Of a stretch of DNA of 64,000 nt, positions 2,354 through 50,943 are shown one piece after another; the first letter of the stretch is position 1, and the number at the start of each line of letters is the position of its first letter. The stretch covers positions 75,323 through 139,322 of the forward strand of contig JAUSKF010000005.1 in the NCBI GenBank assembly GCA_030646995.1, read 5' to 3'. Under the pieces are notes generated by a model that did not search any database, was not told the DNA's origin, and saw nothing but the letters and a program-made list of their open reading frames with translations. This stretch comes from a bacterium (GTDB lineage: Bacteria > Patescibacteriota > Minisyncoccia > UBA6257 > WO2-44-18). A program made the translations under genes and the position numbers.

Positions 2354-3262
2354 ATGAAGTCCAGTTTTAAAAAAGTTACAGGTTCGCAAATAGTGGTGGA
2401 AGTTACCTTAGAGCAGGAGGAATTTTTGCCGTATTATAAAAGCGCTTATGACAAGGCGCTGGCTTCAGTGCAAGTGAAAGGCTTCCGCCCGGGTGCCGCG
2501 CCTAAAGAAATGGCTGATCAAGGAGTGGACAAAGAAGCAGTTTTTAATCAGTCCGCGCAGGCGGCAATCCGTTGGAGTTTAGATGAAATTTCCAAAGACA
2601 AAGAATGGACTTTAATTGATGCCCCGAAGGTGGAGGTAGAAGAGGCGAAGTTGGGGATTAAATATAAAGCTACCCTGACTGTTTTTCCGGAGATTAAACT
2701 CGGCAATTATAAAAAAATCGCCAATAAGGTAGTGAGTGAGAAAAAAGAAGTTTCAGTTGAGGCCGGTGAATTGGAAAAAACTTTGGAGTGGCTTCGCCAG
2801 TCCCGCAAAGAAGGCGAGAAGGTCCCGGAATTGAATGATGAGTTTGCAAAAACAGTCGGGAAATTCCAAACCCTTGAGGAGTTGAAGAAAAACGTGAATG
2901 AAGGAATTTTGATGGAGAAGCAATTCAAGGAGCGGGACAGGCTACGTTTGAAAATGCTGGAAGAAATAATCAAAGCTTCGGAAATTGATTTGCCTTTGAT
3001 TATGGTGGAGAAAACAGAGGCGAGTATGGCCAAGCAGCTTGCCGCGATGCTGAAGGCTTCTGGTAAAACCGACGAGCAGATTCACAAAGAACTACACGAG
3101 CGCGCCGGCCATAACGTGATGAGCAACCTAATAATTTATAAGATTGCCCAAGATGAGAAGTTGGAGCCTACTCCGGAAGAGGTTGGAGAAGAGGGGGATT
3201 ACAACTATAATTATGGTGTGCTTCTGAATGAGAAAGTTTACGCATTCCTAGAGAAACAATAG
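2354..3262 (+). CDS. tig: trigger factor (short form)
   Basis: N-terminal ribosome-binding domain with a GFRPGxAP motif. Canonical tig-clpP adjacency. At 302 aa it is much shorter than E. coli TF. Confidence 0.72.
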   Translation: MKSSFKKVTGSQIVVEVTLEQEEFLPYYKSAYDKALASVQVKGFRPGAAPKEMADQGVDKEAVFNQSAQAAIRWSLDEISKDKEWTLIDAPKVEVEEAKLGIKYKATLTVFPEIKLGNYKKIANKVVSEKKEVSVEAGELEKTLEWLRQSRKEGEKVPELNDEFAKTVGKFQTLEELKKNVNEGILMEKQFKERDRLRLKMLEEIIKASEIDLPLIMVEKTEASMAKQLAAMLKASGKTDEQIHKELHERAGHNVMSNLIIYKIAQDEKLEPTPEEVGEEGDYNYNYGVLLNEKVYAFLEKQ

Positions 3263-3279
3263 GCCAAAACTAACGACAA

Positions 3280-3894
3280 ATGACTAACGACAAAAGAGAA
3301 ATAAGAAACGATTATTTGATACCGACAGTCATTGAGCGCGTCCCGGGAGGCGAGCGAGCTTTTGATATTTACTCCAAGCTATTGAAAGAGCGCATTATTT
3401 TCTTGGGCGGTCAGATTAATGACGGCTTGGCTAATGTAGTCATTGCCCAGCTTTTGCACTTGGAGCATGAAGATCCGAAGAAAGATATTAAGCTTTATAT
3501 CAACAGCCCGGGAGGTTCGGTGACTGCCGGTTTGGCAATCTACGACACTATGCAATACGTGAAGCCCGACGTTTCCACGATTTGTGTTGGTATGGCGGCT
3601 TCCATGGGGGCAGTTTTGCTGGCGGCCGGAAAAAAGGGAAAGCGTATTTCTTTGCCTAATTCGGAAATAATGTTGCATCAGGTGATGGGAGGCGCTGAAG
3701 GCCAAGCCGTGGAGGTAGAGATTGCCGCTAAGCATATTTTGAAGATTAAGGATCGCTTGAATCACATTCTCGCCAAGCATACCGGTCAGACATTGGCGAA
3801 GATTGAAAAAGACACCGACAGAGATTATTTCATGAGTGCGGAAGAAGCGAAGGCTTACGGGGTAGTAGATGAGATAATTAAGAGCAAGAAATAA
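3280..3894 (+). CDS. clpP: ATP-dependent Clp protease proteolytic subunit
   Basis: Strong ClpP signature: [12 protein letters not shown], the catalytic region MAASMGA, and the expected length. Confidence 0.95.
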
Positions 3895-4446: not shown

Positions 4447-5586
4447 ATGAATGAAAATCTTTTAACTCGCGGGATAGAGGACGTAATCGTGAAGGAGCAT
4501 CTGGAGGAGGCTTTATCCGCCAGCCGGCGGACCGGTAAAAAGTTACGGATTAAGTTCGGCGCTGATCCGACCGCGCCCGACCTTCATTTGGGCCATGCCG
4601 TAGTTCTGCGAAAGCTGAAAGAGTTCCAAGATGCCGGGCATCAGATCGTTTTGATCATCGGGGATTACACCGCCAAGATTGGCGACCCGTCGGGCCGCTC
4701 CAAAACTCGCCCATCGCTAACCGACAAAGAGATTAAGGTAAATGCCAAGACTTATTTCAAGCAAGTTGGAAAGATTTTGAACTTGCGCAAAACGGAAGTC
4801 CAATACAACAGTAAGTGGTTCAAAAAAATGAGGTTTGCCGACGTGCTGGAGTTAATGGCAAAATTTACCACTCAACGAATTTTGGAGAGAGACGATTTCA
4901 CTAAACGCATCAAAGAGGGGGTAGAGGTCTATTCGCACGAACAAGTTTATCCGATGATGCAGGCCTATGATTCAATCATGGTGAAAGCCGATGTAGAAGT
5001 TGGCGGCACCGATCAGCGGTTTAATATGCTCGCAGGCCGCGATCTCCAGCGTCATATGGGTTTGCCCGAGCAGGATGTGATCACCTTTCCGCTTTTGGTT
5101 GGCACCGATGGAGAAAAGAAAATGTCCAAGTCCCTGGGTAACTATATCGGCATTACTGAAGCGCCGGATATGATGTTTGGCAAAGTGATGTCAATTCCCG
5201 ATAAGTTGCTGGAGCAGTATTACAAGCTTTGCACCAGCCAAGAGCGCACCCTACCCGACCCGCGCGAGGCAAAGCTTCGTTTGGCAAAGCTGATAGTGAC
5301 GCAATATCACAGCGAGAAAGAAGCAGAAAAGGCGGAACAGGAATTTATTCGGGTGGTTTCGCATGGCGAGGCGCCGGCGGATCGGCCTAAGCGCAAGGAC
5401 TTGGCGGGAAAATCAATTCTCGATGCGATTAGTGTAGTCAATATAGTTTCCAGCAGGAGCGAAGCTCGTCGCTTGATAGAGCAGGGAGGCGTGGAGATAA
5501 ATGGCAAAAAAGTCTCCGACCCTAATGGGATAGTCCCATCCGGAGCCACCGTAAAAGCAGGCAAGCGCCACTATTTCGATACTTGA
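4447..5586 (+). CDS. tyrS: tyrosyl-tRNA synthetase
   Basis: Class I HLGH motif (PDLHLGHAV), KMSKS motif and a C-terminal S4 domain. The start is moved to the MNENLL ATG, which has an RBS (aaaggaa). Confidence 0.92.
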   Translation: MNENLLTRGIEDVIVKEHLEEALSASRRTGKKLRIKFGADPTAPDLHLGHAVVLRKLKEFQDAGHQIVLIIGDYTAKIGDPSGRSKTRPSLTDKEIKVNAKTYFKQVGKILNLRKTEVQYNSKWFKKMRFADVLELMAKFTTQRILERDDFTKRIKEGVEVYSHEQVYPMMQAYDSIMVKADVEVGGTDQRFNMLAGRDLQRHMGLPEQDVITFPLLVGTDGEKKMSKSLGNYIGITEAPDMMFGKVMSIPDKLLEQYYKLCTSQERTLPDPREAKLRLAKLIVTQYHSEKEAEKAEQEFIRVVSHGEAPADRPKRKDLAGKSILDAISVVNIVSSRSEARRLIEQGGVEINGKKVSDPNGIVPSGATVKAGKRHYFDT

Positions 5587-5784: not shown

Positions 5785-8157
5785 ATGAATAAAGGCGGAA
5801 AATTTGCGCGGATAATGAAATTTGGCGGTTCTTCCGTCGGCTCGGCCGAGCGGATAAGGAACGTCGCCAAAATTGTCTTGGACGCCCTTCGGCAGGCTCA
5901 GGGCAAGCCCACAAAAGGCGGGGTTGCCGTGGTGGTTTCCGCTATGCAGGGAGTGACCGACAAGTTGCTGGCTTTGGATTTTGATTTTGTGAAAGAAAAG
6001 CATCTGGCGGCCGCCAAAGAGCTAAAAGTGCCGGCGCCGATGGAATTGCTCAATGAGCTGGAGCTGGTCATCAAGGGTATCAAGCTTTTGGGCGACGCAT
6101 CGCCGATGGCCTTGGATCTTGTCGCCAGTTTTGGCGAGCGCCTCTCTTCGCAGTTGGTCGCCTCTTATTTAAATAAGAAAACTCTTAGTATTGCCGTAGA
6201 TTCCCGTGAATTAGTAAAAACCGATTCCAATTTTCAAAATGCCGCCGTAGATTTCACCGCGACCAATCGCAATATCAAAAAGTTTTTTTCCAAACTCGTC
6301 GTCAGTCGTCAGTCGTCAGTTGTTGTTCCCGTTATCACCGGCTTTATTAGCTCCGATTCTGCGGGCAAGACCACTACGCTGGGCCGAGGCGGCTCCGATT
6401 ATAGCGGGGCAATTTTTGGCGTGGCCTTGGGCGTGGACGTGGTGGAGATCTGGACCGACGCCGATGGAATTATGACGGCCGATCCTAGAATAGTGAAATC
6501 TGCCGCTACTCTTCCCCAGGTCAGCTACGAGGAGGCTTTTGAAATGGCTTATTTCGGGGCTAAGGTGGTTCATCCGGCGACAATGTTGCCCGCTATTAAG
6601 AAAAATATTCCGGTTTTGATTAAAAACACTTTCAATCCGAAGCATCCCGGCACAGTCATCATTGGGTCGGCGGCTAAGGATGGAAAGATTGTAAAGAATG
6701 TTTCGGCAATTGATGGAATGAGTTTAATCAATGTAGGTGGCACAGATTTGGCCGGTGTTCCGGGGACTGCCGAGCGAGTCTTTCGCGCAGTTTCTGAAGC
6801 CAAGGCCAACGTGGTCTTAATCGCCCAAGCATCCTCCGAGCACACTATTTGTTTAGCAGTTAGGAATTTTGAGGCCGATCGGGCGGTGAATGCTATAAAA
6901 AAAGAATTTGAAAACGAGGTGCGGCGCGGGAAGGTGGCAGTCGAGAGGAGAGATAGTCAGAGTATTGTGGCGGTAGTCGGAGATAATATGAGGGGAACGC
7001 CAGGAATAGTGGGTCGTGTTTTCGCCGCGCTTGGCGCGGCGAAGATAAATGTTTCCGCCATCGCGCAGGGCGGCTCAGAGCGGAACATATCTTGTGTGGT
7101 TAATGAAGGCGATAAAACGGCCGCGATCCGGGCGTTGCACCGGGAATTTTTTGAAAACGTCGGAGAGTTGAAGATATTTTTAGTCGGCACAGGAGTGGTC
7201 GGAGGGGAATTACTCAAACAAATCAACTTACAACTTACAACTAACGACTTACAACTGAAGATTTGTGGGATCGCCGATGTTGAGAAGATGTATTTGAGCG
7301 AAAAGGGTATTGATTTAAGGAATTGGAAGAAGTCCGTGAGAGCCGGTGAGAAGACTGACCTTTCGAAATTCATCGCGGAGGCGGCGGTGATGGGGGGTGA
7401 AAAAGTTTTTGTGGATTGCACCGCCAGCGAGAAGATCGCCAAAATGTATCCGCAGTTGGTGAAGTCGGGTTTTCATATAGTCACGCCCAATAAGAAATTC
7501 AATGTCTCTAGCCATAAAGAATACACTAATTTGCGTTCTTTATTGGCGACACATCAAAAATCTTTCCACTATGATGCCAACGTAGGAGCCGGCTTGCCAG
7601 TGATTTCGACAATTAAAAATTTGTTAGCCGCAGGAGACCAAATCAAGAAGATCGAAGGAGTATTCTCCGGCACTTTGAGTTATTTATTCAATAATTTCGA
7701 CGGTAAAAGAAAATTCAGCGATTTAGTGGCCCAAGCTAAGGCTTTGGGTTATACCGAGCCGGATCCGAAAGAGGATCTGAGCGGACAGGATGTAGGAAGG
7801 AAGCTTTTGATCCTTGCCCGAGAAACCGGCTTGCCAGCAGAGCTTGCCGAGGTAAAATTAGAGAACCTAGTGAAGCCCGATAGCTATTTCGCCGGGCGGA
7901 TTAAGAAGGCAAAAGCGAAGAAGTCAGTTTTACGGTATGTGGCGACGGTTCAAAACGGAAGAATGGCGGCATCTTTGAAGGAAGTTCCAATGGGCAACCC
8001 TCTGGCTAGTTTGTCCGGGGCCGACAATGTCTTCGCTATTTACACAAAGTATTATAAAAATCCGCTGGTGATTCGTGGCGCGGGCGCTGGAGCGGAGGTT
8101 ACGGCAGCAGCGGTACTGAACGGAATTCTAAGGATTAAAAATGGAAAAACAAATTAA
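5785..8157 (+). CDS. thrA: bifunctional aspartokinase / homoserine dehydrogenase
   Basis: N-terminal aspartokinase (KFGGSSV), ACT-like middle region, and a C-terminal homoserine dehydrogenase Rossmann fold (LVGTGVVGGEL). Contains two in-frame heptamer repeat insertions (see findings). Confidence 0.9.
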   Translation: MNKGGKFARIMKFGGSSVGSAERIRNVAKIVLDALRQAQGKPTKGGVAVVVSAMQGVTDKLLALDFDFVKEKHLAAAKELKVPAPMELLNELELVIKGIKLLGDASPMALDLVASFGERLSSQLVASYLNKKTLSIAVDSRELVKTDSNFQNAAVDFTATNRNIKKFFSKLVVSRQSSVVVPVITGFISSDSAGKTTTLGRGGSDYSGAIFGVALGVDVVEIWTDADGIMTADPRIVKSAATLPQVSYEEAFEMAYFGAKVVHPATMLPAIKKNIPVLIKNTFNPKHPGTVIIGSAAKDGKIVKNVSAIDGMSLINVGGTDLAGVPGTAERVFRAVSEAKANVVLIAQASSEHTICLAVRNFEADRAVNAIKKEFENEVRRGKVAVERRDSQSIVAVVGDNMRGTPGIVGRVFAALGAAKINVSAIAQGGSERNISCVVNEGDKTAAIRALHREFFENVGELKIFLVGTGVVGGELLKQINLQLTTNDLQLKICGIADVEKMYLSEKGIDLRNWKKSVRAGEKTDLSKFIAEAAVMGGEKVFVDCTASEKIAKMYPQLVKSGFHIVTPNKKFNVSSHKEYTNLRSLLATHQKSFHYDANVGAGLPVISTIKNLLAAGDQIKKIEGVFSGTLSYLFNNFDGKRKFSDLVAQAKALGYTEPDPKEDLSGQDVGRKLLILARETGLPAELAEVKLENLVKPDSYFAGRIKKAKAKKSVLRYVATVQNGRMAASLKEVPMGNPLASLSGADNVFAIYTKYYKNPLVIRGAGAGAEVTAAAVLNGILRIKNGKTN

Positions 8158-14221: not shown

Positions 14222-14555
14222 TGCGATATAATACTTGAGTATAACACAAGAGTCCGGTTCTGGGCTACCTATAGTGCCACTTGAACGATGCTGATTATCG
14301 GCTATTACTAACCACTAGTAGCTAGTCGCTATTTTACCGGAGGGGCTTCGGACGGTCCCTTGGTGGACGGTTCACCAGTCGGACCTTCGAAATTACTCGG
14401 GGTTTGCGCAGGTTGGCGAATCGGTATTCCGGCCAAAACGTAACTTCCGACCAAGCCTAGAATTACTAAAACGACGAAGATTATTTTGAGTGTGCTTTTC
14501 ATATTGGTATAATGTAGTATATTAGAACAAATCTTTTAAGCCTGCAATAATCTAT

Positions 14556-16447: not shown

Positions 16448-16520
16448 GGGCCAGTAGCTTAGTGGCTAAAGCACCGAGCTTATACCTCGGCGAGCGATGG
16501 TTCGAGTCCATCCTGGCCCA
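16448..16520 (+). tRNA. tRNA-Ile (anticodon UAU)
   Basis: Cloverleaf: acceptor GGGCCAG/CTGGCCC, anticodon stem CCGAG/CTCGG, loop CTTATAC giving anticodon TAT, T-loop TTCGAGT. Confidence 0.78.
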
Positions 16521-16563
16521 CAAACATAAACCACCACTTTCATGTGGTGGTTTATGTTTGTGT
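16521..16563 (+). terminator. long hairpin terminator after tRNA-Ile
   Basis: 17-bp perfect stem CAAACATAAACCACCAC / GTGGTGGTTTATGTTTG with a 6-nt loop. Confidence 0.6.
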
Positions 16564-22310: not shown

Positions 22311-23432
22311 ATGAAAATTTTAGCGATAGAAACATCTTGTGATGAGACTGCGATGGCCTTGGTGGATTGCAAGGGCAACCCACTATTGAAAAACCGCTCC
22401 GCCGGCTGGCGGATTAAAGTTTTGGAAAATATTGTTTCTTCGCAGATTGCTATTCATCGCCCATTCGGCGGCGTAGTTCCGAATTTGGCAAAGCGCGAGC
22501 ATATAAAAAATCTCCCAAAAATTTACCAGTCGCTAGTCGCTAGTCACAAGTCGCTAAAGTTTGACCTAATCGCAGTTACCGTTGGTCCGGGTCTGGAGCC
22601 GGCTTTGTGGGCGGGAATTGAATTTGCGAAAAGTTTAGCGAAAGAAACCGGCAAGCCGTTGGTTGGCGGAAATCATATGGAGGGACATCTTTTTTCTAAT
22701 TGGCTGCCGCATAGCGTCATTGCGAGTGCGGCGAAGCAATCTAACAAAAATTTAAGTAAGATTGCCACGACCCCTTCGTGGTCTCGCAATGACAAGATTA
22801 AATTCCCGGCAATCGCGCTCGTGGTCAGTGGCGGACACACGATGGTCATCAAAATGGATTCTTTAAAGAAATGGAAAAATCTTGGCGAGACTCGCGATGA
22901 TGCTGCCGGTGAAGCTTTCGATAAAGTTGCGCGCTTGCTTGGCCTTCAGTATCCGGGCGGACCGGAAGTTGAGAGGCTGGCGAAAAATGGAAATCCGAAA
23001 GCGGTAAATTTTCCGAGGCCGATGTTGAATCCGCCAGCTGGCGGAAAAAATTATGAATTTAGCTTTTCCGGATTGAAGACTTCAGTTCTATATTATTTGC
23101 GAGATCATCCATTTGTCGTCAGCCGTCAGTCATTAGTTGCCGATGTCGCTGCAAGCTTCCAGCAAGCCGTTATCGATACACTGGTTGGAAAAACTATGCG
23201 CGCCGCGGAAGAGTTTGGCGCGCAATCAGTTTTGCTTTCCGGCGGGGTGGCGGCGAATAAGAGATTAAGAGAAATTATGAAATTAGAAACTGAGAAATTG
23301 GGGCGGGAATTTTTTGTGCCGGATTTTCAATACAATACCGATAACGCGGTGATGATTGCCGCCGCCGCCTACATTGCCAAATTGCGCGGGAAAAAATATC
23401 CGATGCGCGCCAACTCGAACCTTAGCTTGTAA
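22311..23432 (+). CDS. tsaD: tRNA N6-adenosine threonylcarbamoyltransferase TsaD/Kae1
   Basis: MKILAIETSCDETA N-terminus and the HMEGH metal-binding motif. Carries in-frame repeat insertions. Confidence 0.9.
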   Translation: MKILAIETSCDETAMALVDCKGNPLLKNRSAGWRIKVLENIVSSQIAIHRPFGGVVPNLAKREHIKNLPKIYQSLVASHKSLKFDLIAVTVGPGLEPALWAGIEFAKSLAKETGKPLVGGNHMEGHLFSNWLPHSVIASAAKQSNKNLSKIATTPSWSRNDKIKFPAIALVVSGGHTMVIKMDSLKKWKNLGETRDDAAGEAFDKVARLLGLQYPGGPEVERLAKNGNPKAVNFPRPMLNPPAGGKNYEFSFSGLKTSVLYYLRDHPFVVSRQSLVADVAASFQQAVIDTLVGKTMRAAEEFGAQSVLLSGGVAANKRLREIMKLETEKLGREFFVPDFQYNTDNAVMIAAAAYIAKLRGKKYPMRANSNLSL

Positions 23433-24175: not shown

Positions 24176-24219
24176 TTGCCAATTTTCTCAATTTCTAATT
24201 TCTCAATTTCTAACTTATA

Positions 24220-26355
24220 ATGATTCCAATGTCTGAAGAGCTGCCAAAGGCCTACGACCCGAAAGCCACCGAAGACCGCATTTATAAAATGTGGGAGGAC
24301 GGCGGGTATTTTAAGCCAGCGACTAGCGACTCGCGACTAGCGACTGGGAAAACTTACGCCATCCATTTGCCACCGCCGAACGTGACGGGTTCTTTGCATA
24401 TGGGTCACGCACTCAACGCGACCATCTCCGACATTTTAATTCGCTATCATCGGATGCGTGGCTATGAAACAGTTTGGTTTCCGGGCACCGATCACGCCGG
24501 TATCGCTACGCAAAGCGTGGTTGAAAAGAATTTAAAAAAAGAAGGCATTAGCCGCTGGGATTTGGGTCGCGAAAAGTTTATTGAAAAAGTTTGGGAGTGG
24601 AGAAAACAATATGGAGATATTATTATCAGTCAGTTAAAAAAACTCGGCGCTTCCGCGGACTGGTCGCGGACCCGTTTCACGATGGACCTCGAATATGCCG
24701 GCTGGGTAAAAAAAGTTTTTATTCATTATTTCGAAAAAGATTTAATTTATCGCGGCAAGCGAGTGGTTAGTTGGTGTACCGCTTGTCAGACTTCTTTGTC
24801 GGATTTGGAAATTGAATATAAAGAAGAGAAAACAAAATTGTGGCAAATTAAGTACCCACTGACTGACGACAAAGGACAAACGACTAGCGACTTCATAATC
24901 GTTGCGACGACTCGGCCGGAAACGATGCTGGGCGATTCGGCGGTTGCCGTGAACCCGAAAGATAAGCGTTATGAAAATTTAGTTGGCAAAAAAGTTTTGT
25001 TGCCGATCCAGAATCGCGAGATTCCGATTGTCGCGGACGAAAAAATTGATATGGCTTTCGGGACGGGCGCGGTGAAGATCACGCCGGCGCATGATCTGCT
25101 GGATGCTGAAATAGGGGAGCGACATAAGCTGCCTTTTGTTCCGGTAATCAACGGAATAGGGAAAATGACCGCCGAGGCCGGAAAAGATTTTGAAGGACTG
25201 AAGATCGCTGAGGCGCGCGAGAGGGTGGTGGCGGAGTTGGAAAAACTTGGCCTGATAGCTAAGACCGAGGACTACACTCATAACTTAGCAATTTGTTACC
25301 GGAGCGCCACACCCATTGAACCGCTTTTAAGCGACCAGTGGTTTTTGAAGATGAAAGATCTTGCCGCGACGGCATTGGAAACCGTGCAGTCAGGGAAAAC
25401 CAAAATTATTCCGGAGAATTTTTCTAAGCCTTATATTTCTTGGCTGGAGAATATAAAAGATTGGTGTATCTCCCGGCAAATTTGGTGGGGGCATCAGCTT
25501 CCGGTTTATTTTTGCAAAACTGATCCATTGAAGTTTGTCGTTTCGGAAGAAAAGCCTGCAAAATGCTCGGAATGTGGAAATTGCGAGATGGAGCAATCTC
25601 AAGACGTTTTGGATACCTGGTTTTCTTCCGCGCTTTGGCCATTCGCCGGGCTTTCCGAGGAAGATCAAAAGAAATTTTATCCTTCGAGTGTTTTAATCAC
25701 CGCCCGCGATATTATCAATCTTTGGGTCGGGCGGATGATCTTTTCGGGAATGGAATTTATGGGTGAGACTCCTTTCCCGGATGTTTTGATCCACGGCACA
25801 ATTCTCACCAAAGATGGCAAGCGTATGTCTAAAAGCCTAGGAACCGGCATTGACCCAATCGGTTTGATAGATAAGTACGGCGCCGACGCGACCCGGTTTG
25901 GCATAATTTGGCAGGCGATGGGCAATCAGGACATTCACTGGGACGAAACCGCCCTAGCTGGCGGCAAGAAGTTTGCTAACAAGCTATGGAATATCGCCCG
26001 GTATATTCATGGCGTAGGTATTGTTCCGAGAAATTTAGATGTTCAACGCGTTGAACATGTTGAAGACAAGGAAATTTTGGAAAAACTGGAAATTTTGAAG
26101 AAAGAAGTGGAAAAGGGGACCCAGGAGTATGATTTCGGACAAACTCTGCACAAGATTTACGACTTCGTCTGGCACGATTTAGCTGATAAATACATAGAAA
26201 CCTCAAAAGATCGCACCGATGAAAATGTTAAACTGATATTAAGCGGCCTCCTGATGGACGTTTTGAAGATATTGCACCCGTTTATGCCGTTCATCACCGA
26301 AGAGCTCTATCAAAAGCTCTTTGCTAAGGATTCCGCCCTGATTGCCGCGGAATAA
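24220..26355 (+). CDS. valS: valyl-tRNA synthetase (short form)
   Basis: HMGHALN (HIGH), the CP1 editing domain and KMSKS. Lacks the long C-terminal coiled-coil. Contains an in-frame (TAGCGAC)n insertion. Confidence 0.92.
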   Translation: MIPMSEELPKAYDPKATEDRIYKMWEDGGYFKPATSDSRLATGKTYAIHLPPPNVTGSLHMGHALNATISDILIRYHRMRGYETVWFPGTDHAGIATQSVVEKNLKKEGISRWDLGREKFIEKVWEWRKQYGDIIISQLKKLGASADWSRTRFTMDLEYAGWVKKVFIHYFEKDLIYRGKRVVSWCTACQTSLSDLEIEYKEEKTKLWQIKYPLTDDKGQTTSDFIIVATTRPETMLGDSAVAVNPKDKRYENLVGKKVLLPIQNREIPIVADEKIDMAFGTGAVKITPAHDLLDAEIGERHKLPFVPVINGIGKMTAEAGKDFEGLKIAEARERVVAELEKLGLIAKTEDYTHNLAICYRSATPIEPLLSDQWFLKMKDLAATALETVQSGKTKIIPENFSKPYISWLENIKDWCISRQIWWGHQLPVYFCKTDPLKFVVSEEKPAKCSECGNCEMEQSQDVLDTWFSSALWPFAGLSEEDQKKFYPSSVLITARDIINLWVGRMIFSGMEFMGETPFPDVLIHGTILTKDGKRMSKSLGTGIDPIGLIDKYGADATRFGIIWQAMGNQDIHWDETALAGGKKFANKLWNIARYIHGVGIVPRNLDVQRVEHVEDKEILEKLEILKKEVEKGTQEYDFGQTLHKIYDFVWHDLADKYIETSKDRTDENVKLILSGLLMDVLKILHPFMPFITEELYQKLFAKDSALIAAE

Positions 26356-33140: not shown

Positions 33141-33170
33141 ACAAACGACTAACGACTTACGATAAAGAAT

Positions 33171-34685
33171 ATGCCGACACCAAAAGCAAAAACAGGAAAT
33201 GATCTGATGGATAAGCTTCTTAGCTTGTGCAAAAGGAGAGGTTTTATTTTTCCGGGCTCGGAAATTTACGGCGGCTTAGCTAACTCTTGGGACTACGGCC
33301 CGCTTGGCGCTGAATTAAAAAAGAATATTAAAGACGAATGGTGGAATCGCTTTGTCCGCCAGCGTACCGATGTAGTTGGAATTGATGCCGCTTTGATGAT
33401 GAACCCGAAGGTTTGGGAGGCGAGTGGCCACGTGGCCGGTTTTTCCGATCCGTTGGTGGAGTGCAAAAAATGCCATGAGCGTTTCCGCGCTGACGCTCTC
33501 GAAATTTCGAAATCCGATGTCAAAATGTCGAAATCTCCTGTCGAAATGTCGAAATCTGATGTCAAAATGTCGAAATCTCCTGTCGAAATCTCGAAATCTC
33601 GAAATGTCATTCCCTGCCCGTCTTGTGGTGGTGAGCTGATGGAGGCCAAGCAATTTAACCTTATGTTCAAAACGAACATCGGCCCGACCGAAGAAAAGGG
33701 AAGTGCGGTTTATCTCCGCCCGGAAACGGCGCAGGCGATGTTTGTGGATTTTAAAAATGTATTAGACACCACGCGTAAGCGTCTGCCGTTCGGTATCGCC
33801 CAGATGGGCAAGGCTTTCCGAAATGAAATTACTCCCGGCAATTTTATTTTTCGCACCCGTGAATTTGAGCAGATGGAAATTGAATATTTCGTAAAAGAAT
33901 CCGAATGGGAAAAGCATTTTGAGAATTGGTTAGGCGAAATGAAGGCCTGGCTGGAACACTTGGGAGTTTCCGAAAAAAATCTGCACTATGCCGAGATTCC
34001 CGACGGGGAGCGCGCTCATTATTCCAAGCGCACCGTGGATATTGAATATGAATATCCTTTTGGTCGCAAAGAGCTTTACGGTTTGGCTTACCGCGGGAAC
34101 TTTGATCTTACCCAGCATGAGAAATTCAGCGGACAGGATTTGCGCTACACCGACCCGAATCCGCCGGCTGGCGGACCGAAGGAGAAGTTCTTGCCGCACG
34201 TCATTGAGCCGACCTGGGGCGTGGATCGTTCGGTTTTGGTGGCGATGCTAGAGGCGTACCATGAAGAAAAAGTAGAAAGTTCCGCCAAAGGCGGATCCGC
34301 CTCCGGCGGAAAAAGTGAAAAGTTAAAAGTGAAAAGTGAGGGAGAGGAAGGGGAGGACATTCGGGTAGTGATGCGTTTTCCGAAGTGGCTGGCTCCGGTG
34401 AAAGTAGCGATTTTGCCGCTTTCCAAAAAAGAAGAATTGGCGAAAGTTGCCAAACCCCTCTATGAAGAATTAGCCAAAAAGTTTGTCTGCGAATACGACG
34501 AAACCCAGAGCATCGGCAAGCGTTATCGCCGCCAAGACGAGATCGGCACGCCTTATTGCGTGACGGTGGATTTTGATTCGCTCGAGGACAAAGCCGTTAC
34601 TGTCCGCGACCGCGACACGATGGAGCAGGACAGGATCAAAATTTCCGAGCTTGTGGATTACTTAGGAAAAAGTTTAGAGAAATAA
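33171..34685 (+). CDS. glyQS: glycyl-tRNA synthetase (dimeric, class II)
   Basis: RRGFIFPGSEIYGGLANSWDYGPLGAELKKNIKDEWW is the GlyRS N-terminal signature. Has class II motifs and a C-terminal anticodon-binding domain. Contains a 2x14-aa tandem repeat insertion. Confidence 0.88.
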   Translation: MPTPKAKTGNDLMDKLLSLCKRRGFIFPGSEIYGGLANSWDYGPLGAELKKNIKDEWWNRFVRQRTDVVGIDAALMMNPKVWEASGHVAGFSDPLVECKKCHERFRADALEISKSDVKMSKSPVEMSKSDVKMSKSPVEISKSRNVIPCPSCGGELMEAKQFNLMFKTNIGPTEEKGSAVYLRPETAQAMFVDFKNVLDTTRKRLPFGIAQMGKAFRNEITPGNFIFRTREFEQMEIEYFVKESEWEKHFENWLGEMKAWLEHLGVSEKNLHYAEIPDGERAHYSKRTVDIEYEYPFGRKELYGLAYRGNFDLTQHEKFSGQDLRYTDPNPPAGGPKEKFLPHVIEPTWGVDRSVLVAMLEAYHEEKVESSAKGGSASGGKSEKLKVKSEGEEGEDIRVVMRFPKWLAPVKVAILPLSKKEELAKVAKPLYEELAKKFVCEYDETQSIGKRYRRQDEIGTPYCVTVDFDSLEDKAVTVRDRDTMEQDRIKISELVDYLGKSLEK

Positions 34686-39275: not shown

Positions 39276-40113
39276 GTTATTTGATAGCCATACTCATATA
39301 CACTTTCCTATTTATGATCATGATCGGGAGGAGGTAATTAAGCGTGCCAGAGAAGCGGGAGTGAAGATGCTTTGTGTTGGCACGCAGGCCGCTTCGTCGC
39401 AGGCGGGCGTGGATTTGGCAAAAAAATATCCCGGCGAAATTTGGGCCGCGGCGGGTTTTCATCCGAATCATTTTGCCAGCGCTTGGTATCACGACAAGAA
39501 AGAGCAGGCAGAATCCGAAAGAGAGAAGTTTGACGCGTCAAACTTATTAAAAATCGCCCAGCAGCCAGAGGTGGTGGCAATCGGGGAGTGTGGGTTGGAT
39601 TACTACAGATTACCGAACGACAAACAAGAAACAACTAACGACAAAAATACTCAACGCGACGCGTTTATCGCGCAGATTAAGATAGCCGAGCAGGTTGGGA
39701 AGCCGCTGATGATGCACATTCGTCCCTCACGAGGAACCGATGACGCCTATTTAGATGCTTTGGATATTTTGAAATCCGAAAAGTTTTCCGGTGGGAAGAT
39801 TAGTCATTTTTTCGTGGGCTCGTTGGAGGCCGCAAAGAAAATGGCAGAGGCAGGATTCAGTTTTACTTTCGGCGGAGTGATCACTTTTGCCCGAAATTAT
39901 GATGAAGTAATAAAATATTTGCCGATAGAGAATATCTTACTGGAAACTGACGCGCCGTATGTTGCTCCAATGCCGTACCGCGGAAAAAGAAACGAACCAG
40001 CATATATTTCGGCGACTGCGGCGAAAATCGCCGAGCTAAAAGGACTTTCAGTGGAGGAGGTAGCCGAGAAAACTTTCGCCAACGCATTGCGTATTTTCAA
40101 AATTACTTTATAA
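39262..40113 (+). CDS. tatD: TatD family metal-dependent hydrolase/DNase
   Basis: DSHTHIHF N-terminus and conserved His/Glu/Asp blocks. Classic metG-tatD adjacency. Confidence 0.88.
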   Translation: MSMPKLFDSHTHIHFPIYDHDREEVIKRAREAGVKMLCVGTQAASSQAGVDLAKKYPGEIWAAAGFHPNHFASAWYHDKKEQAESEREKFDASNLLKIAQQPEVVAIGECGLDYYRLPNDKQETTNDKNTQRDAFIAQIKIAEQVGKPLMMHIRPSRGTDDAYLDALDILKSEKFSGGKISHFFVGSLEAAKKMAEAGFSFTFGGVITFARNYDEVIKYLPIENILLETDAPYVAPMPYRGKRNEPAYISATAAKIAELKGLSVEEVAEKTFANALRIFKITL

Positions 40114-42261: not shown

Positions 42262-44580
42262 ATGAAGTACGACTTCAAGAAAATAGAAAAGAAGTGGCAA
42301 AAGGAATGGGCCAAGGGAAAATATAAAGTTTGGCATTCTGAAGATAAGTCCAAAAAACCGAAAGCTTATGTTTTGGATATGTTTCCTTATCCATCAGGAG
42401 AGGGCCTGCACGTCGGCCACGTGGAAGGCTACACCGCTTCCGATATCTATAGCCGATTTTTGCGGATGAGCGGCTATAACGTTCTCCACCCGATGGGCTG
42501 GGACGCTTTTGGTTTACCGGCGGAAAATTATGCTATAAAAAAGAAAATTCATCCGAGTATTGTGGTGAAAAATAACGTAAAGAATTTTACTCGCCAGTTG
42601 AATAGCTTAGGCTTCAGCTATGATTGGCAACGTGAAATTAATACTACCGACCCCGATTATTATAAATGGACGCAGTGGATTTTTCTTCAGCTTTTCAAAA
42701 AAGGACTGGCCTACGAGGCGGAGATTCCGGTTAATTGGTGTCCGAATGATAAAACCGTTCTGGCCAATGAAGAGGTGATTGATGGCGGCTGCGAGCGCTG
42801 CGGAGCGAATGTGGAGCGCAAGAAGCTGAAGCAGTGGGTTTTGAAGATTACTGCCTACGCCGACCGCCTGCTTGCCGACTTAGATGGGCTAGACTGGCCC
42901 GGGCGAGTAAAAGAGATGCAAAGAAATTGGATTGGCCGCTCGGAGGGGGCGCTGATTAAGTTTCCGGTGGTTTGTAACCGGCCTTATTCCGGCGCGCTGG
43001 AAATTTTCACTACTCGGCCCGACACCATTGCCGGAGTGGCTTATATGGTGGTTGCTCCGGAGCATCCGTTAATCTCGGAATTAGGTGAGCACATCGAAAA
43101 TCTAACCGAAGTTAAAAAGTATATTGAGAAGGCGAAGAATAAAAGCGACAGAGAGCGTCAGGAAAATAAAGAGAAGACGGGTGTTGCATTGAAGGGGGTG
43201 CGGGCAGTCAACCCCTGGAGCAAAAAAGAAGTACCGATTTGGGTTTCAGACTATGTGCTGATGAATTACGGCACAGGAGCGATTATGGCCGTTCCTCAAC
43301 ACGACGAGCGTGATCGTGAATTTGCCGTAAAATTCCAACTGCCGATTTTTGATGAGCCTCTAATTTCTAAAGATGAAGTAGTTGCCAAGGTTGGAGGTCA
43401 GAAAAAAATTAACTATAAGCTTCGTGATTGGATATTTTCCCGCCAGCGTTATTGGGGTGAGCCTATCCCGATAATCAAGTGCGCGACTTGCGGCAACGTC
43501 GCAGTGCCGGAAGATGAGTTGCCGGTAGTTTTGCCTAAGGTGAAAAATTACGAGCCAACAGGTGAGGCCGAATCTCCTTTGGCGGGCATTGAAAAGTGGG
43601 TCAAGGTAAAATGCCCACAATGCGAAGGGCCGGCGAAGAGAGAGACGAATACAATGCCCCAATGGGCCGGCTCCTGCTGGTACTACATCGGCTATTTAAT
43701 AGCCGAAAATCTCAAATCCCAAACTCTAATTTCTAAACAAATTCAAAATTCTAAATTTCAAAATGAGATCAAACATTGGCTTCCAGTGGATTTGTATCTT
43801 GGCGGAGTAGAGCATGCCGTACTCCATCTCTTGTATGCTCGTTTTTGGCACAAAGTTTTGTTTGATATCGGCGCGGTCTCTACTAAAGAGCCATTTATGA
43901 AGCTGGTCAATCAGGGTTTGATCTTGGGTCCGGATGGTTTAAAGATGTCTAAATCTAAGGGGAATGTGGTTAATCCCGATGAAATAGTGGCAGGTTTCGG
44001 GGCTGATTCGTTGCGCTTATATGAAATGTTTATGGGCCCATTGGAAGATGCCAAGCCTTGGGACCCGCGAGGGATTGTTGGTCTGCACCGCTTCTTACAG
44101 AGAGTGAATTCTTTGCCAATTATCAAGGGAGCTAGCAGCGCTGAATTAGAGCGATTACTCCATCAGACAACTAAAAAAGTGTCCGAAGACATTAAGGTCT
44201 TTCACTTCAACACCGCCATCAGCGCTCTGATGGTCTTGAGTAATAAAATGGAATCACTGCTTCCGGAATTTGTGAAATTACTGGCCCCATTTGCGCCACA
44301 TCTTGCGCAGGAGCTTTGGCAGAGACTGGGAAATAAAACTTTACTTGATAATGAAACTTGGCCGAAGTGGGACTCGAAATTAATTCAGGAAGATAATTTT
44401 GAATTGATTGTTCAGGTAAATGGCAAGATGCGCGATAAATTTTCTACAGCTAAGGGTATTTCTCAATCGGAAGCCGAGGGTTTAGCTTTAGCCCGTGATG
44501 GCGTGAAGAAGTGGATAGCTGGAGGTCAGCCGAAGAAAGTTATTTTCGTGAAAGATCGCTTGATAAATTTTCTCGTTTAA
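42262..44580 (+). CDS. leuS: leucyl-tRNA synthetase
   Basis: PYPSGEGLHVGHVEGY (HIGH region), KMSKS and a CP1 editing domain. Contains a low-complexity heptamer-like insert at 43707-43765. Confidence 0.92.
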   Translation: MKYDFKKIEKKWQKEWAKGKYKVWHSEDKSKKPKAYVLDMFPYPSGEGLHVGHVEGYTASDIYSRFLRMSGYNVLHPMGWDAFGLPAENYAIKKKIHPSIVVKNNVKNFTRQLNSLGFSYDWQREINTTDPDYYKWTQWIFLQLFKKGLAYEAEIPVNWCPNDKTVLANEEVIDGGCERCGANVERKKLKQWVLKITAYADRLLADLDGLDWPGRVKEMQRNWIGRSEGALIKFPVVCNRPYSGALEIFTTRPDTIAGVAYMVVAPEHPLISELGEHIENLTEVKKYIEKAKNKSDRERQENKEKTGVALKGVRAVNPWSKKEVPIWVSDYVLMNYGTGAIMAVPQHDERDREFAVKFQLPIFDEPLISKDEVVAKVGGQKKINYKLRDWIFSRQRYWGEPIPIIKCATCGNVAVPEDELPVVLPKVKNYEPTGEAESPLAGIEKWVKVKCPQCEGPAKRETNTMPQWAGSCWYYIGYLIAENLKSQTLISKQIQNSKFQNEIKHWLPVDLYLGGVEHAVLHLLYARFWHKVLFDIGAVSTKEPFMKLVNQGLILGPDGLKMSKSKGNVVNPDEIVAGFGADSLRLYEMFMGPLEDAKPWDPRGIVGLHRFLQRVNSLPIIKGASSAELERLLHQTTKKVSEDIKVFHFNTAISALMVLSNKMESLLPEFVKLLAPFAPHLAQELWQRLGNKTLLDNETWPKWDSKLIQEDNFELIVQVNGKMRDKFSTAKGISQSEAEGLALARDGVKKWIAGGQPKKVIFVKDRLINFLV

Positions 44581-48148: not shown

Positions 48149-48222
48149 TACCATTCCATTTAATTTCTATAAGTCTGGTACGTGTACCATTCTATTTTAT
48201 TTATATAAGTCTGGTACTCGTA
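48149..48222. promoter_or_regulatory. tandem 36-bp repeat in htrA upstream region
   Basis: Two copies of TACCATTC(C/T)ATTT..ATTT(C/A)TATAAGTCTGGTAC. Each has GTACCA...TGGTAC inverted ends. Confidence 0.5.
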
Positions 48223-50280: not shown

Positions 50281-50943
50281 TTAAATGATATTCTTCTTGC
50301 CTATTATAGCGAGTACGGCCCTAATTTTCAAATATTTTCTTCTAAGACTCGTGGCGTGGTTTTTATAATATATCTTTGGCAACAATTTTAAAGATTCCGC
50401 TTTCGCATATTTTAGCTGATAGCACACACCCTTTTGGCCACGTCCGGTTACGTGGCCTTTGATATTCAATAATTCGTAAATTCGCTCACGCAGCCAGTTA
50501 ATGTGTTTTTTGCTTGCCGATACAAACTCGGTATAAAACATAAAACTGGACCTCCATCGGGGATCCCAGTAGGAATAGAATGTTCCGTCGCCATCAAAAT
50601 GTCCGCGTAAAAAATCAAAAAAGTATTGATTTGGTATTTCTAATGCGCTCATTACCTTCGACTTGTTCGCCATTAGTCCAATTTTTAATAAAAATCTATA
50701 GAAATTCACGTCACCAAACTGGATACGAAATGCCTTTTTACCAGTTTGCCCGGACGTTTTTTGTCCGATTTTATTTTTAATTCCTAGGCACCCCTTAAAA
50801 TTCTCTAGTTGTTCCTTGTCCTTGGAAGTTAGATCAAAGTGCCGGCTATCGGATGATAAATTGCCATCGGTGGTTAAAAGCCCGATTGCGTAGGCAAAGT
50901 TGGGCGACCATTCAAGTTTTATTTTGTTTTTCGGTAAGGCCAT
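50281..50943 (-). CDS. LAGLIDADG-family homing endonuclease (double-motif)
   Basis: Two LAGLIDADG blocks, AYAIGLLTTDGNLS and FLRGHFDGDGTF, at the typical spacing. Free-standing, with its stop 4 nt from tRNA-Leu(GAG). Confidence 0.82.
   Translation of the reverse strand: MALPKNKIKLEWSPNFAYAIGLLTTDGNLSSDSRHFDLTSKDKEQLENFKGCLGIKNKIGQKTSGQTGKKAFRIQFGDVNFYRFLLKIGLMANKSKVMSALEIPNQYFFDFLRGHFDGDGTFYSYWDPRWRSSFMFYTEFVSASKKHINWLRERIYELLNIKGHVTGRGQKGVCYQLKYAKAESLKLLPKIYYKNHATSLRRKYLKIRAVLAIIGKKNII

What the first reader, a model, noticed from the sequence alone, without database searches (positions are those of the whole stretch)
6298..6320. Heptanucleotide tandem-repeat family (GTCGTCA / TAGCGAC / ACTAACG) embedded in frame in thrA, tsaD, valS, tatD and at gene boundaries
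Arrays of 3 to 5 degenerate 7-nt units recur in the window. In thrA they are (GTCGTCA)x3.3 at 6298-6320, giving VVSRQSSVVV, and (CAACTTA)x5 at 7224-7258. In tsaD they are (TAGTCGC)x4 at 22527-22559 and GTCGTCA-GCCGTCA-GTCATTA at 23115-23139. In valS they are (TAGCGAC)x4 at 24317-24348, the reverse complement of the tsaD unit, and 24859-24915. In tatD they are at 39615-39665. Intergenic or start-overlapping copies are at 3267-3297 (spanning the clpP start codon), 33143-33167 (upstream of glyQS) and 14315-14332. A 7-nt unit repeated three times gives 21 nt, which explains frame preservation in coding copies. Both orientations occur. This looks like a mobile or slippage-prone simple-sequence family colonising essential genes, possibly a contingency or hypervariability mechanism.
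Basis: seen in the sequence. Interest (0 to 1): 0.65.

Follow-up and report, generated by a model that had tools for sequence, protein, structure and literature searches.

The report
Seven-base repeats inside essential genes
This ultra-small (Patescibacteria) bacterium carries many short runs of 7-base tandem repeats, mostly inside housekeeping genes, where they encode flexible protein loops; they are real and unusually frequent, but they are a known class of simple-sequence repeat, not a demonstrated mobile element or genetic switch.

Summary
Period-7 tandem arrays are about 25-fold more frequent than in shuffles (9 vs 0.37), while periods 4-12 sit at chance. Eight loci share an (AGTCGNN)n unit in both orientations (23 matches vs 0.95 expected).

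The window is a Patescibacteria MAG contig. Its relatives show the same excess: 10-17 arrays per 100 kb, against 3.3 in other bacteria. Across the clade, 32 of 39 arrays lie wholly inside genes.

The arrays sit in variable, low-confidence loops or short spacers. Only some are net insertions. The tsaD 22527 array matches the length of solved T. maritima TsaD. The thrA 6298 array is exactly 21 nt longer than in the two closest relatives.

Orthologous arrays evolve in concert. The window has (GTCGTCA)3 where a 79%-identical ThrA has (GTCGCCA)4. More than half of the units contain a stop codon, and half of all array imperfections fall exactly where a stop would be in frame. The repeat is therefore made at DNA level and edited by selection.

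Three near-identical assembly pairs show no length variation, so contingency switching has no support. I found no conserved flanks, so mobility has no support either.

Best reading: heptanucleotide simple-sequence repeats kept uniform by local replication misalignment. This is a new member of a known kind.

The parts
6298..6320 (+). (GTCGTCA)x3.3 inside thrA, followed by the degenerate unit GTTGTTG. It encodes VVSRQSSVVV.
   Evidence: TRF reports 100% matches. The relative L082 has (GTCGCCA)x3.9 at the same site and length, while L085 and L088 are exactly 21 nt shorter. In the AlphaFold model the array lies in a loop between helix 157-173 and strand 181-185, where block pLDDT is 60.
7224..7258 (-). 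(CAACTTA)x5 inside thrA, which reads as AGTTGTA/AGTCGTT on the minus strand. It encodes NLQLTTNDLQLK.
   Evidence: TRF reports 4.7 copies and the family pattern matches. L085 and L088 have homologous arrays. L086 has (AGTTYAA)x5 at the same site. L082 and L083 are 6 codons shorter. Block pLDDT is 76, against 91 and 92 in the flanks.
22527..22559 (+). AGTCGCT AGTCGCT AGTCACA AGTCGCT inside tsaD, encoding QSLVASHKSLK. The third unit deviates exactly where CGC-TAG would be in frame.
   Evidence: There is no length change against T. maritima TsaD 6N9A. L001 (AGTCGTT), L004 (AGTTAAT) and L003 (AAAACTT) carry arrays at the same site.
23115..23139 (+). Degenerate array GTCGTCA GCCGTCA GTCATTA GTTG inside tsaD, encoding VVSRQSLVA.
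   Evidence: The family pattern matches with 3 mismatches. The array lies in a 5-aa insertion relative to 6N9A. L004 has (AGTTAAA)x6 at the same site.
24317..24348 (-). CAGCGAC TAGCGAC TCGCGAC TAGCGAC inside valS, which reads as (AGTCGCK)x4 on the minus strand. It encodes PATSDSRLATG. The third unit is TCG where TAG would be in frame.
   Evidence: TRF reports 4.0 copies. The family pattern matches exactly. L001 has GTCGTTG GTCGTAA GTCGTTA at the same site, and L003 and L013 have other heptamers there. The region is a variable, indel-rich loop.
24862..24892 (-). Degenerate array ACTGACG ACAAAGG ACAAACG ACTAGCG ACT inside valS.
   Evidence: TRF reports 24866-24884. It belongs to repeat families D2 and D8 and matches the family pattern. 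It lies in the variable insertion region at columns 220-250 of the ValS alignment.
3267..3297 (-). AAACTAACGACAAATGACTAACGACAAAAGA, which is two 14-nt (2 x 7) units. It fills the tig-clpP spacer and the first six clpP codons; the ATG is at 3280.
   Evidence: It is the reference copy of repeat family D2 and matches the family pattern.
33143..33167 (-). AAACGAC TAACGAC TTACGAT, filling the 30-nt spacer before the glyQS start at 33171.
   Evidence: TRF reports 33144-33162.
39615..39646 (-). Degenerate array GAACGAC AAACAAG AAACAAC TAACGAC inside tatD.
   Evidence: It is not reported by TRF. It is 81% identical to the clpP array in repeat family D2. The loop is 7 aa longer than in PDB 6L25.
34311..34339 (+). 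(AAAAGTG/AAAAGTT)x4.1 inside glyQS, encoding KSEKLKVKSE. This is a second unit family (AGTGAAA/AGTTAAA) that is shared with L001 and L004.
   Evidence: It lies inside a 19-aa insertion relative to PDB 8U2Q and relative to L002.
33496..33608 (+). A 21-nt (3 x 7) and 42-nt tandem repeat of about 5 copies inside glyQS. It is built from TCGAAAT/GTCGAAA units and encodes (MSKS[DP]V[KE])n between two CxxC pairs.
   Evidence: TRF reports periods 21 and 42. It is repeat family D1. The loop is +18 aa against 8U2Q and +21 aa against L005 and L007.
43739..43764 (+). Weak array (AAATTCW)x3.6 inside leuS, with an unrelated unit.
   Evidence: TRF score 36. It also appears in my scan.
24184..24221 (+). TTTCTCAATTTCTAA x2 (period 15, or 7/8) ending at the valS start codon.
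   Evidence: TRF rows for periods 7, 8 and 15.

Best explanation
These are heptanucleotide simple-sequence repeats, the 5-11 nt 'long SSR' class already described in prokaryotes. They are unusually dense in this Patescibacteria lineage.

**Proposed mechanism**
1. A DNA-level process with a 7-nt register creates short arrays of 3-5 units and keeps them uniform. The most likely process is transient misalignment of the nascent strand during replication or repair. It would copy a neighbouring unit, or add or remove blocks of units.
2. Selection then removes every outcome that frameshifts or truncates a protein.
3. In a genome that is 90% coding, the surviving arrays therefore sit in short intergenic spacers and in structurally permissive loops of housekeeping proteins. 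There they are translated in all three phases of the unit.
4. Their net length changes are multiples of 3 nt, sometimes exactly 21 nt. Units that would place a stop codon in frame carry a single 'repair' substitution.

**Consequence:** the arrays are a source of loop sequence turnover and of small insertions in these proteins.

**Shown:** the excess of period-7 arrays, their location, concerted evolution at orthologous sites, the stop-avoiding interruptions, and the absence of length differences between near-identical assemblies.

**Inferred:** the misalignment mechanism and the reason for the 7-nt register.
For: - **Period-7 excess in the window:** 9 arrays against 0.37 in shuffles, with other periods at chance. 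TRF agrees.
- **Same excess in relatives:** 17.1 arrays per 100 kb in close relatives and 10.6 in other Patescibacteria loci, against 3.3 in 1.08 Mb of other bacteria, where periods 6, 9 and 12 dominate.
- **No avoidance of genes:** 32 of 39 clade arrays are fully inside ORFs in DNA that is 90% coding.
- **Arrays map to variable places:** indel-rich alignment columns, gaps or unconserved segments against solved structures, and lower-confidence loops of a ThrA model.
- **Concerted evolution at ThrA site 1:** the window has GTCGTCA x3 plus GTTGTTG, L082 has GTCGCCA x3.9, and L083 has GTCGCCA x2, GTCGCTA and GTTCCTA. All three have the same length and register.
- **Concerted evolution at TsaD site A:** AGTCGCT in the window against AGTCGTT in L001.
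- **Concerted evolution at ValS site C:** AGTTRAA in L001 against AGTTTAA in L004.
- **Different units at the same sites:** more distant relatives carry other heptamers at these sites.
- **DNA-level origin:** 18 of 32 in-gene arrays have a consensus unit containing a stop codon, against 31% of random genomic 7-mers. 19 of the 38 mismatches to consensus lie on the would-be in-frame stops, and the rest of those arrays are 96% perfect.
- **Precedent in the literature:** heptanucleotide repeats are reported as the most abundant class of 5-11 nt SSRs in most genomes. A 7-nt DNA polymerase contact was proposed to favour slippage (Mrazek et al. 2007, as summarised in PMC4679880).
- **Arrays are widespread:** four-unit heptamer arrays of several cores are common in metagenomic and viral contigs.
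Against: - Simple unit-by-unit slippage (+/-7 nt) would frameshift essential genes. The model therefore needs either templated conversion without length change, or changes of three units at a time. Neither was observed directly.
- Eight window loci share the AGTCG core. Purely local seeding from random sequence would not predict this.
- No copy-number polymorphism was seen. That is expected for short interrupted arrays, but it also means ongoing slippage is not demonstrated.
- The reason for a 7-nt register is a literature conjecture, not a tested fact.
- The bumps at 7 and 14 aa in the indel-length histogram are small and come from non-independent pairs.
Confidence: 0.6

Rival explanations
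1. The arrays are functional cis-elements. They would be tandem heptamer binding sites on DNA or mRNA for a regulator or RNA-binding protein, as proposed for TAACTGA repeats in Beggiatoaceae and for the four-heptamer elements of Geobacter.
For: - The units are non-random. AGTCG occurs at 8 loci, and ACT/AGT and CGAC are enriched in units across the clade (the printed counts are doubled by a counting slip, so the real figures are about 22 of 39 and 11 of 39).
- Copy number is stereotyped at 3-5 units.
- Three intergenic arrays abut start codons of clpP, glyQS and valS.
- Stop-containing units are kept inside genes despite their cost.
- Similar proposals exist in the literature (PMC4679880, PMC2700814).
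Against: - Orthologous arrays have different units in different lineages, so the sequence is not conserved.
- Both orientations occur relative to transcription.
- Most arrays lie deep inside genes of unrelated function.
- Intergenic spacers here are only about 30 nt long, so any intergenic array must abut a start codon.
- Units are not more alike within a genome than between genomes (permutation p = 0.47).
Confidence: 0.12
2. The arrays belong to a mobile or copy-spreading mini-insertion family. Preformed heptamer arrays would be inserted at new loci by ectopic conversion or by an unknown insertion activity.
For: - Eight loci share one unit family in both orientations.
- The (AGTCGNN)3 form is limited to the window and its closest relatives among the loci held.
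- valS site A carries the family in opposite orientation in the window and in L001.
- Other in-frame mini-inserts coexist in the same loops.
Against: - No conserved flanks, terminal repeats or target duplications were seen around the arrays.
- The arrays occupy orthologous positions in lineages with 60-80% protein identity.
- Some arrays cause no length change.
- No transposase or reverse transcriptase was found among the window ORFs scanned against Pfam.
Confidence: 0.12
3. The arrays are contingency (phase-variation) loci. Copy-number changes of the 7-nt unit would switch genes on and off, as in the NeuO heptanucleotide repeat.
For: A 7-nt unit shifts the reading frame with each copy change. 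In-frame heptanucleotide VNTRs are known (PMC13001214).
Against: - The host genes are single-copy housekeeping genes (valS, tsaD, glyQS, thrA, tatD).
- The arrays are short and interrupted.
- There are no indels between L086 and L087 (19.4 kb, 4 arrays), between L083 and L084, or between L081 and the window.
- Orthologues keep the frame across all arrays.
Confidence: 0.04
4. The arrays are chance events or a by-product of codon usage or low complexity.
For: Some listed arrays are weak (14315, 2318, 43739). A-rich units such as AAAAGTT could reflect Lys-rich loops.
Against: - Shuffles and the internal control of other periods both reject chance.
- Coding sequence should favour periods 3, 6 and 9, as it does in the non-Patescibacteria loci.
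- AGTCGCT-type units are neither low-complexity nor codon-friendly.
Confidence: 0.02

Closest known systems
Long simple sequence repeats with 5-11 nt units, heptanucleotide class (Mrazek, Guo and Shah 2007, as summarised in PMC4679880)
   Same: Both are tandem 7-nt units found more often than chance allows. Period 7 is preferred over neighbouring periods. Slippage with a 7-nt polymerase contact is the proposed cause.
   Different: From my own recollection of that paper, which I could not read here, that class was found mostly in large genomes, and units that are not multiples of 3 were thought to avoid coding regions. Here the genome is reduced and 82% of the arrays are inside genes, including essential ones.
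Four-heptamer elements of Geobacter metallireducens (GGGACCG x4 at 49 sites; MTYCTGA x5) (PMC2700814)
   Same: [quoted passage not shown]
   Different: The unit sequence and the phylum differ. The Geobacter elements were interpreted as regulatory RNA or binding sites. No evolutionary analysis of orthologous sites was reported in the passages I read.
TAACTGA direct repeats of marine Beggiatoaceae, cyanobacteria and some Bacteroidetes (PMC4679880); cyanobacterial STRR heptamers (from my own knowledge)
   Same: Both are heptamer direct repeats of 2-6 copies. Some lie directly upstream of start codons and a few are inside ORFs at tolerant positions. The mechanism is unknown in both cases.
   Different: The TAACTGA repeats use one fixed unit, are mostly intergenic, and carry stops in all frames in the forward orientation. 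The window has no TAACTGA tandem (0 TAACTGA and 6 single TCAGTTA), and its units vary between loci and lineages.
NeuO poly-psi heptanucleotide VNTR of E. coli K1 (PMC13001214)
   Same: A 7-nt unit is translated in frame, so that three units encode seven residues.
   Different: NeuO is a phase-variable, phage-borne surface-modification gene with long perfect arrays and documented copy-number switching. Neither feature is seen here.

Membership tests
Heptanucleotide simple-sequence repeats (long SSR, 5-11 nt units) | Head-to-tail iterations of one 7-nt unit | tested here: met
   TRF rows with period 7. Sequences read directly.
Heptanucleotide simple-sequence repeats (long SSR, 5-11 nt units) | Arrays longer or more numerous than expected from composition | tested here: met
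   9 arrays against 0.37 in shuffles. 23 pattern matches against 0.95 expected. 8 matches against 0.11 expected.
Heptanucleotide simple-sequence repeats (long SSR, 5-11 nt units) | Length variation through slipped-strand events | tested here: inconclusive
   Between species, lengths differ by 18-24 nt at array sites. Between near-identical assemblies there are no indels. No read-level data were available.
Contingency / phase-variable repeat loci (e.g. NeuO) | Copy-number polymorphism within a population that switches the reading frame | tested here: not met
   Three near-identical assembly pairs have 0 indels. All orthologues are in frame. The sample is limited, because protein clusters are singletons.
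Contingency / phase-variable repeat loci (e.g. NeuO) | Host genes are surface, virulence or restriction-modification genes | tested here: not met
   The host genes are thrA, tsaD, valS, glyQS, tatD and leuS.
TAACTGA / STRR-type heptamer repeats | The family's own unit sequence (TAACTGA; CCCCAGT, TTGGTCA, CAACAGT) | tested here: not met
   TAACTGA occurs 0 times and TCAGTTA 6 times, as single copies only. None of the arrays found has a unit from these sets.
TAACTGA / STRR-type heptamer repeats | Predominantly intergenic, just upstream of start codons | tested here: not met
   32 of 39 clade arrays lie fully inside ORFs. Only 3 window arrays abut start codons.
Miniature mobile elements (MITE/REP-like) | Conserved ends or inverted repeats, target-site duplication, and presence/absence at non-orthologous sites | tested here: not met
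   Similarity between copies is confined to the heptamer array itself. The arrays lie at orthologous sites in relatives.
Geobacter-type four-heptamer elements | About four tandem heptamers recurring at many intergenic and intragenic sites of one genome | tested here: met
   Eight AGTCG-type loci of 3-5 units in 64 kb, six in genes and two in spacers. The unit sequence differs, so this is a resemblance in form and not shared ancestry.

The most novel reading that the evidence does not exclude
A dedicated or at least strongly biased DNA-level process with a 7-nt register operates in Patescibacteria. It would continually rewrite permissive loops of essential proteins, through templated homogenisation and 21-nt steps, with a preference for AGTC/AGTT-type units. 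It would then be a main source of the lineage-specific protein insertions typical of these reduced genomes. The sequence preference would point to a specific enzyme (a primase, polymerase or repair factor) or to a binding factor that could be identified.
Probability: 0.2. Interest if true: 0.7.

Novelty: new member of a known kind. Interest (0 to 1): 0.45.

Why it matters
Patescibacteria proteins are known for lineage-specific insertions, and how those insertions arise is unclear. In this clade, many variable loops of housekeeping enzymes are written in 7-base tandem repeats. These repeats evolve in concert and are trimmed only where they would create a stop codon. That points to a simple mutational source for loop turnover and small insertions in very small genomes.

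The result also extends the unexplained bacterial preference for 7-nt repeat units to a new phylum, and to a setting (essential genes) where such units were thought to be excluded.

There are practical consequences. These arrays can mislead alignments, indel-based phylogenetic markers and frameshift or pseudogene calls in metagenome-assembled genomes.

Tried and rejected
1. **Genome-specific unit idea.** It looked as if each genome had its own heptamer at several loci. A permutation test showed no greater unit similarity within genomes than between them (4.26 vs 4.25, p = 0.47), so I dropped it.
Control cores in viral contigs were also abundant: AGCTG reached 120 or more and ATGCG gave 54. No specificity can be claimed.
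3. **Dispersed single-unit excess.** None was found.
4. **Strain-level polymorphism of the window organism.** Its proteins form singleton clusters, and the only >=90% relative of ThrA is a C-terminal fragment that misses the arrays. The best full-length ThrA relative is 84% identical. The test was therefore impossible. Three other near-identical assembly pairs showed no indels.
5. **Indel lengths quantised in 7 aa.** There are small bumps at 7 and 14 aa, but the pair counts are not independent. I treat this as suggestive only.
6. **TsaD structure prediction.** I modelled ThrA instead.
7. **Mrazek 2007.** The paper is not held, so I cite it through PMC4679880.
8. **CtsR operator.** This is a heptad direct repeat upstream of clpP in Firmicutes (from my own knowledge). 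I considered it for the clpP array and set it aside, because it has two units with a 3-nt spacer (period 10), a different sequence, and cannot explain the in-gene arrays.
9. The printed unit k-mer counts are doubled. Enrichment remains strong after halving, but the printed p-values should not be used.
Full report
**What the window is.** The genes found are thrA, tsaD, valS, tatD, clpP, a class-II GlyRS, leuS and tig. The rest of the window is ordinary housekeeping. The proteins are in NCBI as a MAG labelled 'bacterium' (MDO8467077-105) on a contig of 153,844 nt. The closest ValS and ThrA relatives are Patescibacteria, including Candidatus Harrisonbacteria and Parcubacteria-group MAGs. Proteins are short (ValS 711 aa; trigger factor 302 aa with no PPIase match) and nearly all genes lie on one strand, which suits a reduced genome of this group.

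**Check of the observation.** Tandem Repeats Finder reports period-7 arrays at 6298, 7224, 22528, 24318, 24866 and 33144.

A self-shift scan finds 9 period-7 arrays, against 0.37 on average in shuffles, and no shuffle exceeds 1. Periods 4-6 and 8-12 give 0-2 arrays each. Other periods in the same coding sequence act as an internal control against codon effects.

The 'family' claim also holds. (AGTCGNN)3 with up to 3 mismatches gives 23 matches, 20 of them at 8 loci, on both strands, against 0.95 expected. Four AGT triplets at 7-nt spacing give 8 matches against 0.11 expected. The repeat finder independently groups the clpP, thrA, valS, glyQS-upstream and tatD arrays (family D2). The array at 14315 is not supported. 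There is no excess of single dispersed units.

**Where the arrays lie.**
- *ThrA.* The 6298 array encodes VVSRQSSVVV in a variable segment. In an AlphaFold model (mean pLDDT 82) it falls in the loop between helix 157-173 and strand 181-185, where block pLDDT is 60. The 7224 array lies at the end of helix 471-487, where block pLDDT is 76 against 91-92 in the flanks.
- *TsaD.* Against T. maritima TsaD (PDB 6N9A), the 22527 array occupies an unconserved segment of unchanged length. The 23115 array lies in a 5-aa insertion.
- *TatD.* The loop is 7 aa longer than in PDB 6L25.
- *GlyRS.* A 21/42-nt repeat at 33496-33608 adds 18 aa between two CxxC pairs. The AAAAGTG array at 34311 lies in a 19-aa insertion.
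- *ValS.* The arrays fall in the three most indel-rich stretches of the alignment.
- *Spacers.* Two arrays fill short intergenic spacers before clpP and glyQS, and a 15-nt x2 repeat ends at the valS start.

'Insertion' is therefore only partly right. The arrays mark permissive loop or spacer sequence and do not always add length.

**Relatives show the same phenomenon.** Period-7 arrays occur at the following rates per 100 kb:

| Sequence set | Period-7 arrays per 100 kb |
|---|---|
| Window | 14.1 |
| Nine close relatives | 17.1 |
| Ten other Patescibacteria loci | 10.6 |
| 1.08 Mb of other bacteria | 3.3 |

In the other bacteria, periods 6, 9 and 12 dominate, as expected for coding DNA. In 212 kb of clade DNA (90% coding), 32 of 39 arrays lie fully inside ORFs.

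The arrays recur at the same protein sites in different lineages, often with different units:

| Site | Lineage: unit |
|---|---|
| TsaD residues ~72-83 | window AGTCGCT; L001 AGTCGTT; L004 AGTTAAT; L003 AAAACTT (all in the same 33-codon frame, except L001, which carries an extra 42-nt insert) |
| ValS residue ~33 | window TAGCGAC; L001 GTCGTTR; L003 AAAACTT; L013 TAAAACC |
| ThrA site 2 | window, L085 and L088 AACTTAC-type; L086 AGTTYAA; L082 and L083 six codons shorter |

**Concerted evolution.** At ThrA site 1 the window reads GTCGTCA GTCGTCA GTCGTCA GTTGTTG. L082 (79% protein identity) reads GTCGCCA GTCGCCA GTCGCCA GTCGCCG. L083 reads GTCGCCA GTCGCCA GTCGCTA GTTCCTA. Length and register are the same in all three, and the C/T difference at unit position 5 is present in every unit.

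L085 and L088, the relatives with the highest overall identity, lack the array and are exactly 21 nt shorter. L086 has CTAAAYC units there. Similar all-unit differences separate the window and L001 at TsaD site A, and L001 and L004 at ValS site C. Independent point mutation does not produce this pattern. Some homogenising process must act within each array.

**The repeat is a DNA-level feature edited by selection.** A tandem 7-mer is read in all seven codon phases. Eighteen of the 32 in-gene arrays have a consensus unit that contains a stop codon when read cyclically on the coding strand, against 31% of random genomic 7-mers.

In those arrays, 19 of the 38 departures from the consensus lie exactly on the would-be in-frame stops. 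The remaining positions are 96% identical to the consensus. Window examples are TCGCGAC in place of TAGCGAC in valS, and AGTCACA in place of AGTCGCT in tsaD.

An open reading frame forces at least one change per would-be stop, so the informative points are two. Such costly units are common inside genes, and the arrays are otherwise nearly perfect. The same units occur in spacers. Protein-level selection for a peptide repeat cannot explain this.

- *Mobility.* Copies resemble each other only within the array. I saw no shared flanks or duplications, positions are orthologous across lineages, and no transposase or reverse transcriptase was found among the window ORFs scanned.
- *Contingency switching.* The genes are housekeeping genes and every orthologue stays in frame. 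Near-identical assemblies show no indels: L086 vs L087 (19.4 kb, 5 mismatches, 4 arrays), L083 vs L084, and L081 vs the window.
- *Limit of the data.* The window organism has no strain variants in the databases, so read-level variation remains untested.

**Most likely mechanism.** The arrays behave as heptanucleotide simple-sequence repeats. The literature held here reports that heptanucleotide repeats are the most abundant class among 5-11 nt SSRs in most genomes. It also reports a proposal that a 7-nt contact with DNA polymerase favours slippage (Mrazek et al. 2007, as summarised in PMC4679880).

Changes of +/-7 nt would be lethal in these genes. I therefore infer one of two routes:
- transient misalignment that copies a few bases from the neighbouring unit and then realigns, which homogenises without changing length; or
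- changes of three units at once, as in the 21-nt presence/absence at ThrA site 1.

Selection then removes frameshifts and stops. This accounts for the location, the concerted evolution, the constant length at several sites and the single stop-avoiding substitutions. It does not explain why 8 window loci share the AGTCG core.

I tested two ideas about that core and neither held. Units are not more alike within genomes than between them. Abundance of (AGTCGNN)4 in metagenomes is matched by control cores in viral contigs. A cis-acting function or copy-spread between loci therefore remains a minority possibility.

**Comparison with known systems.**
- *TAACTGA repeats.* The arrays resemble these repeats of Beggiatoaceae, cyanobacteria and Bacteroidetes in size and in their occasional position before start codons. 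Those repeats use one fixed unit and are mostly intergenic (PMC4679880), and the window has no TAACTGA tandem.
- *NeuO.* The NeuO heptanucleotide repeat is also translated in frame, but it is a true phase-variable locus (PMC13001214).
- *Patescibacteria.* None of the papers listed by a combined full-text search held both 'heptanucleotide' and a Patescibacteria term.

**Verdict.** This is a new member of a known kind, heptanucleotide SSRs. It is notable for its density in a reduced genome, its residence in essential genes, and clear evidence of concerted evolution under purifying selection. Interest is moderate.

Noticed in passing
window 4517-4534, 20519-20551, 22399-22416, 23031-23048, 34161-34178: An 18-nt GC-rich palindromic element, CCGCCRGCYGGCGGACCG, occurs six times, always inside genes (tyrS, recG twice in tandem, tsaD twice, glyQS). 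It encodes PPAGG- or SAGW-type loop insertions. The PPAGG peptide also appears in TsaD of L003 and in a ThrA relative (P0009). It looks like a second, separate kind of in-frame mini-insert.
   Followed up: partly
window 5887-5909: A 21-nt in-frame insertion in thrA encodes LRQAQGKPT and is absent from the five closest relatives. Similar peptides occur in P0006 and P0007 ThrA and in L003 TsaD (LRQAQGSK). It is single-copy in the window.
   Followed up: partly
L001 1335-1376: In the TsaD gene of L001, a 42-nt GC-rich insert with a hairpin-capable core (GCCGAC CCCGGGC GTCGGC) splits the heptamer array that is intact in the window.
   Followed up: no
window 16448-16521: ARAGORN calls a tRNA-Ile with anticodon UAU. 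From my own knowledge this is uncommon in bacteria, which usually read AUA with a lysidine-modified CAU tRNA.
   Followed up: no
window 50281-50943 (- strand): A free-standing ORF with a weak LAGLIDADG-like match (E = 1.2e-5) lies between tRNA-Leu and rplS.
   Followed up: no
window 48149-48217: A 36-nt direct repeat (1.9 copies, 90% identical) lies in the divergent spacer between the HtrA-like protease gene and a VTT-domain gene. Each copy contains TACCA...TGGTA, which looks like an operator.
   Followed up: no
L013 1446-1481: (CCCTAAA)x5 lies inside an ORF of a Patescibacteria relative. This is the plant-type telomere unit and is probably a coincidence, but it is a perfect example of a stop-containing heptamer kept in frame by single changes.
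   Followed up: no
L089-L168 (metagenome contigs): (AGTCGNN)n arrays of 4-20 copies occur in at least 120 metagenome contigs. In the 80 contigs analysed, GC ranged from 29% to 73% and many arrays lay inside long ORFs. Control cores are also common in viral contigs, so heptamer arrays in general are widespread.
   Followed up: partly
window 24220-26355 and 2354-3262: ValS is only 711 aa and ends after the anticodon-binding domain. Trigger factor is 302 aa and matches only Trigger_N and Trigger_C, with no PPIase domain match.
   Followed up: no
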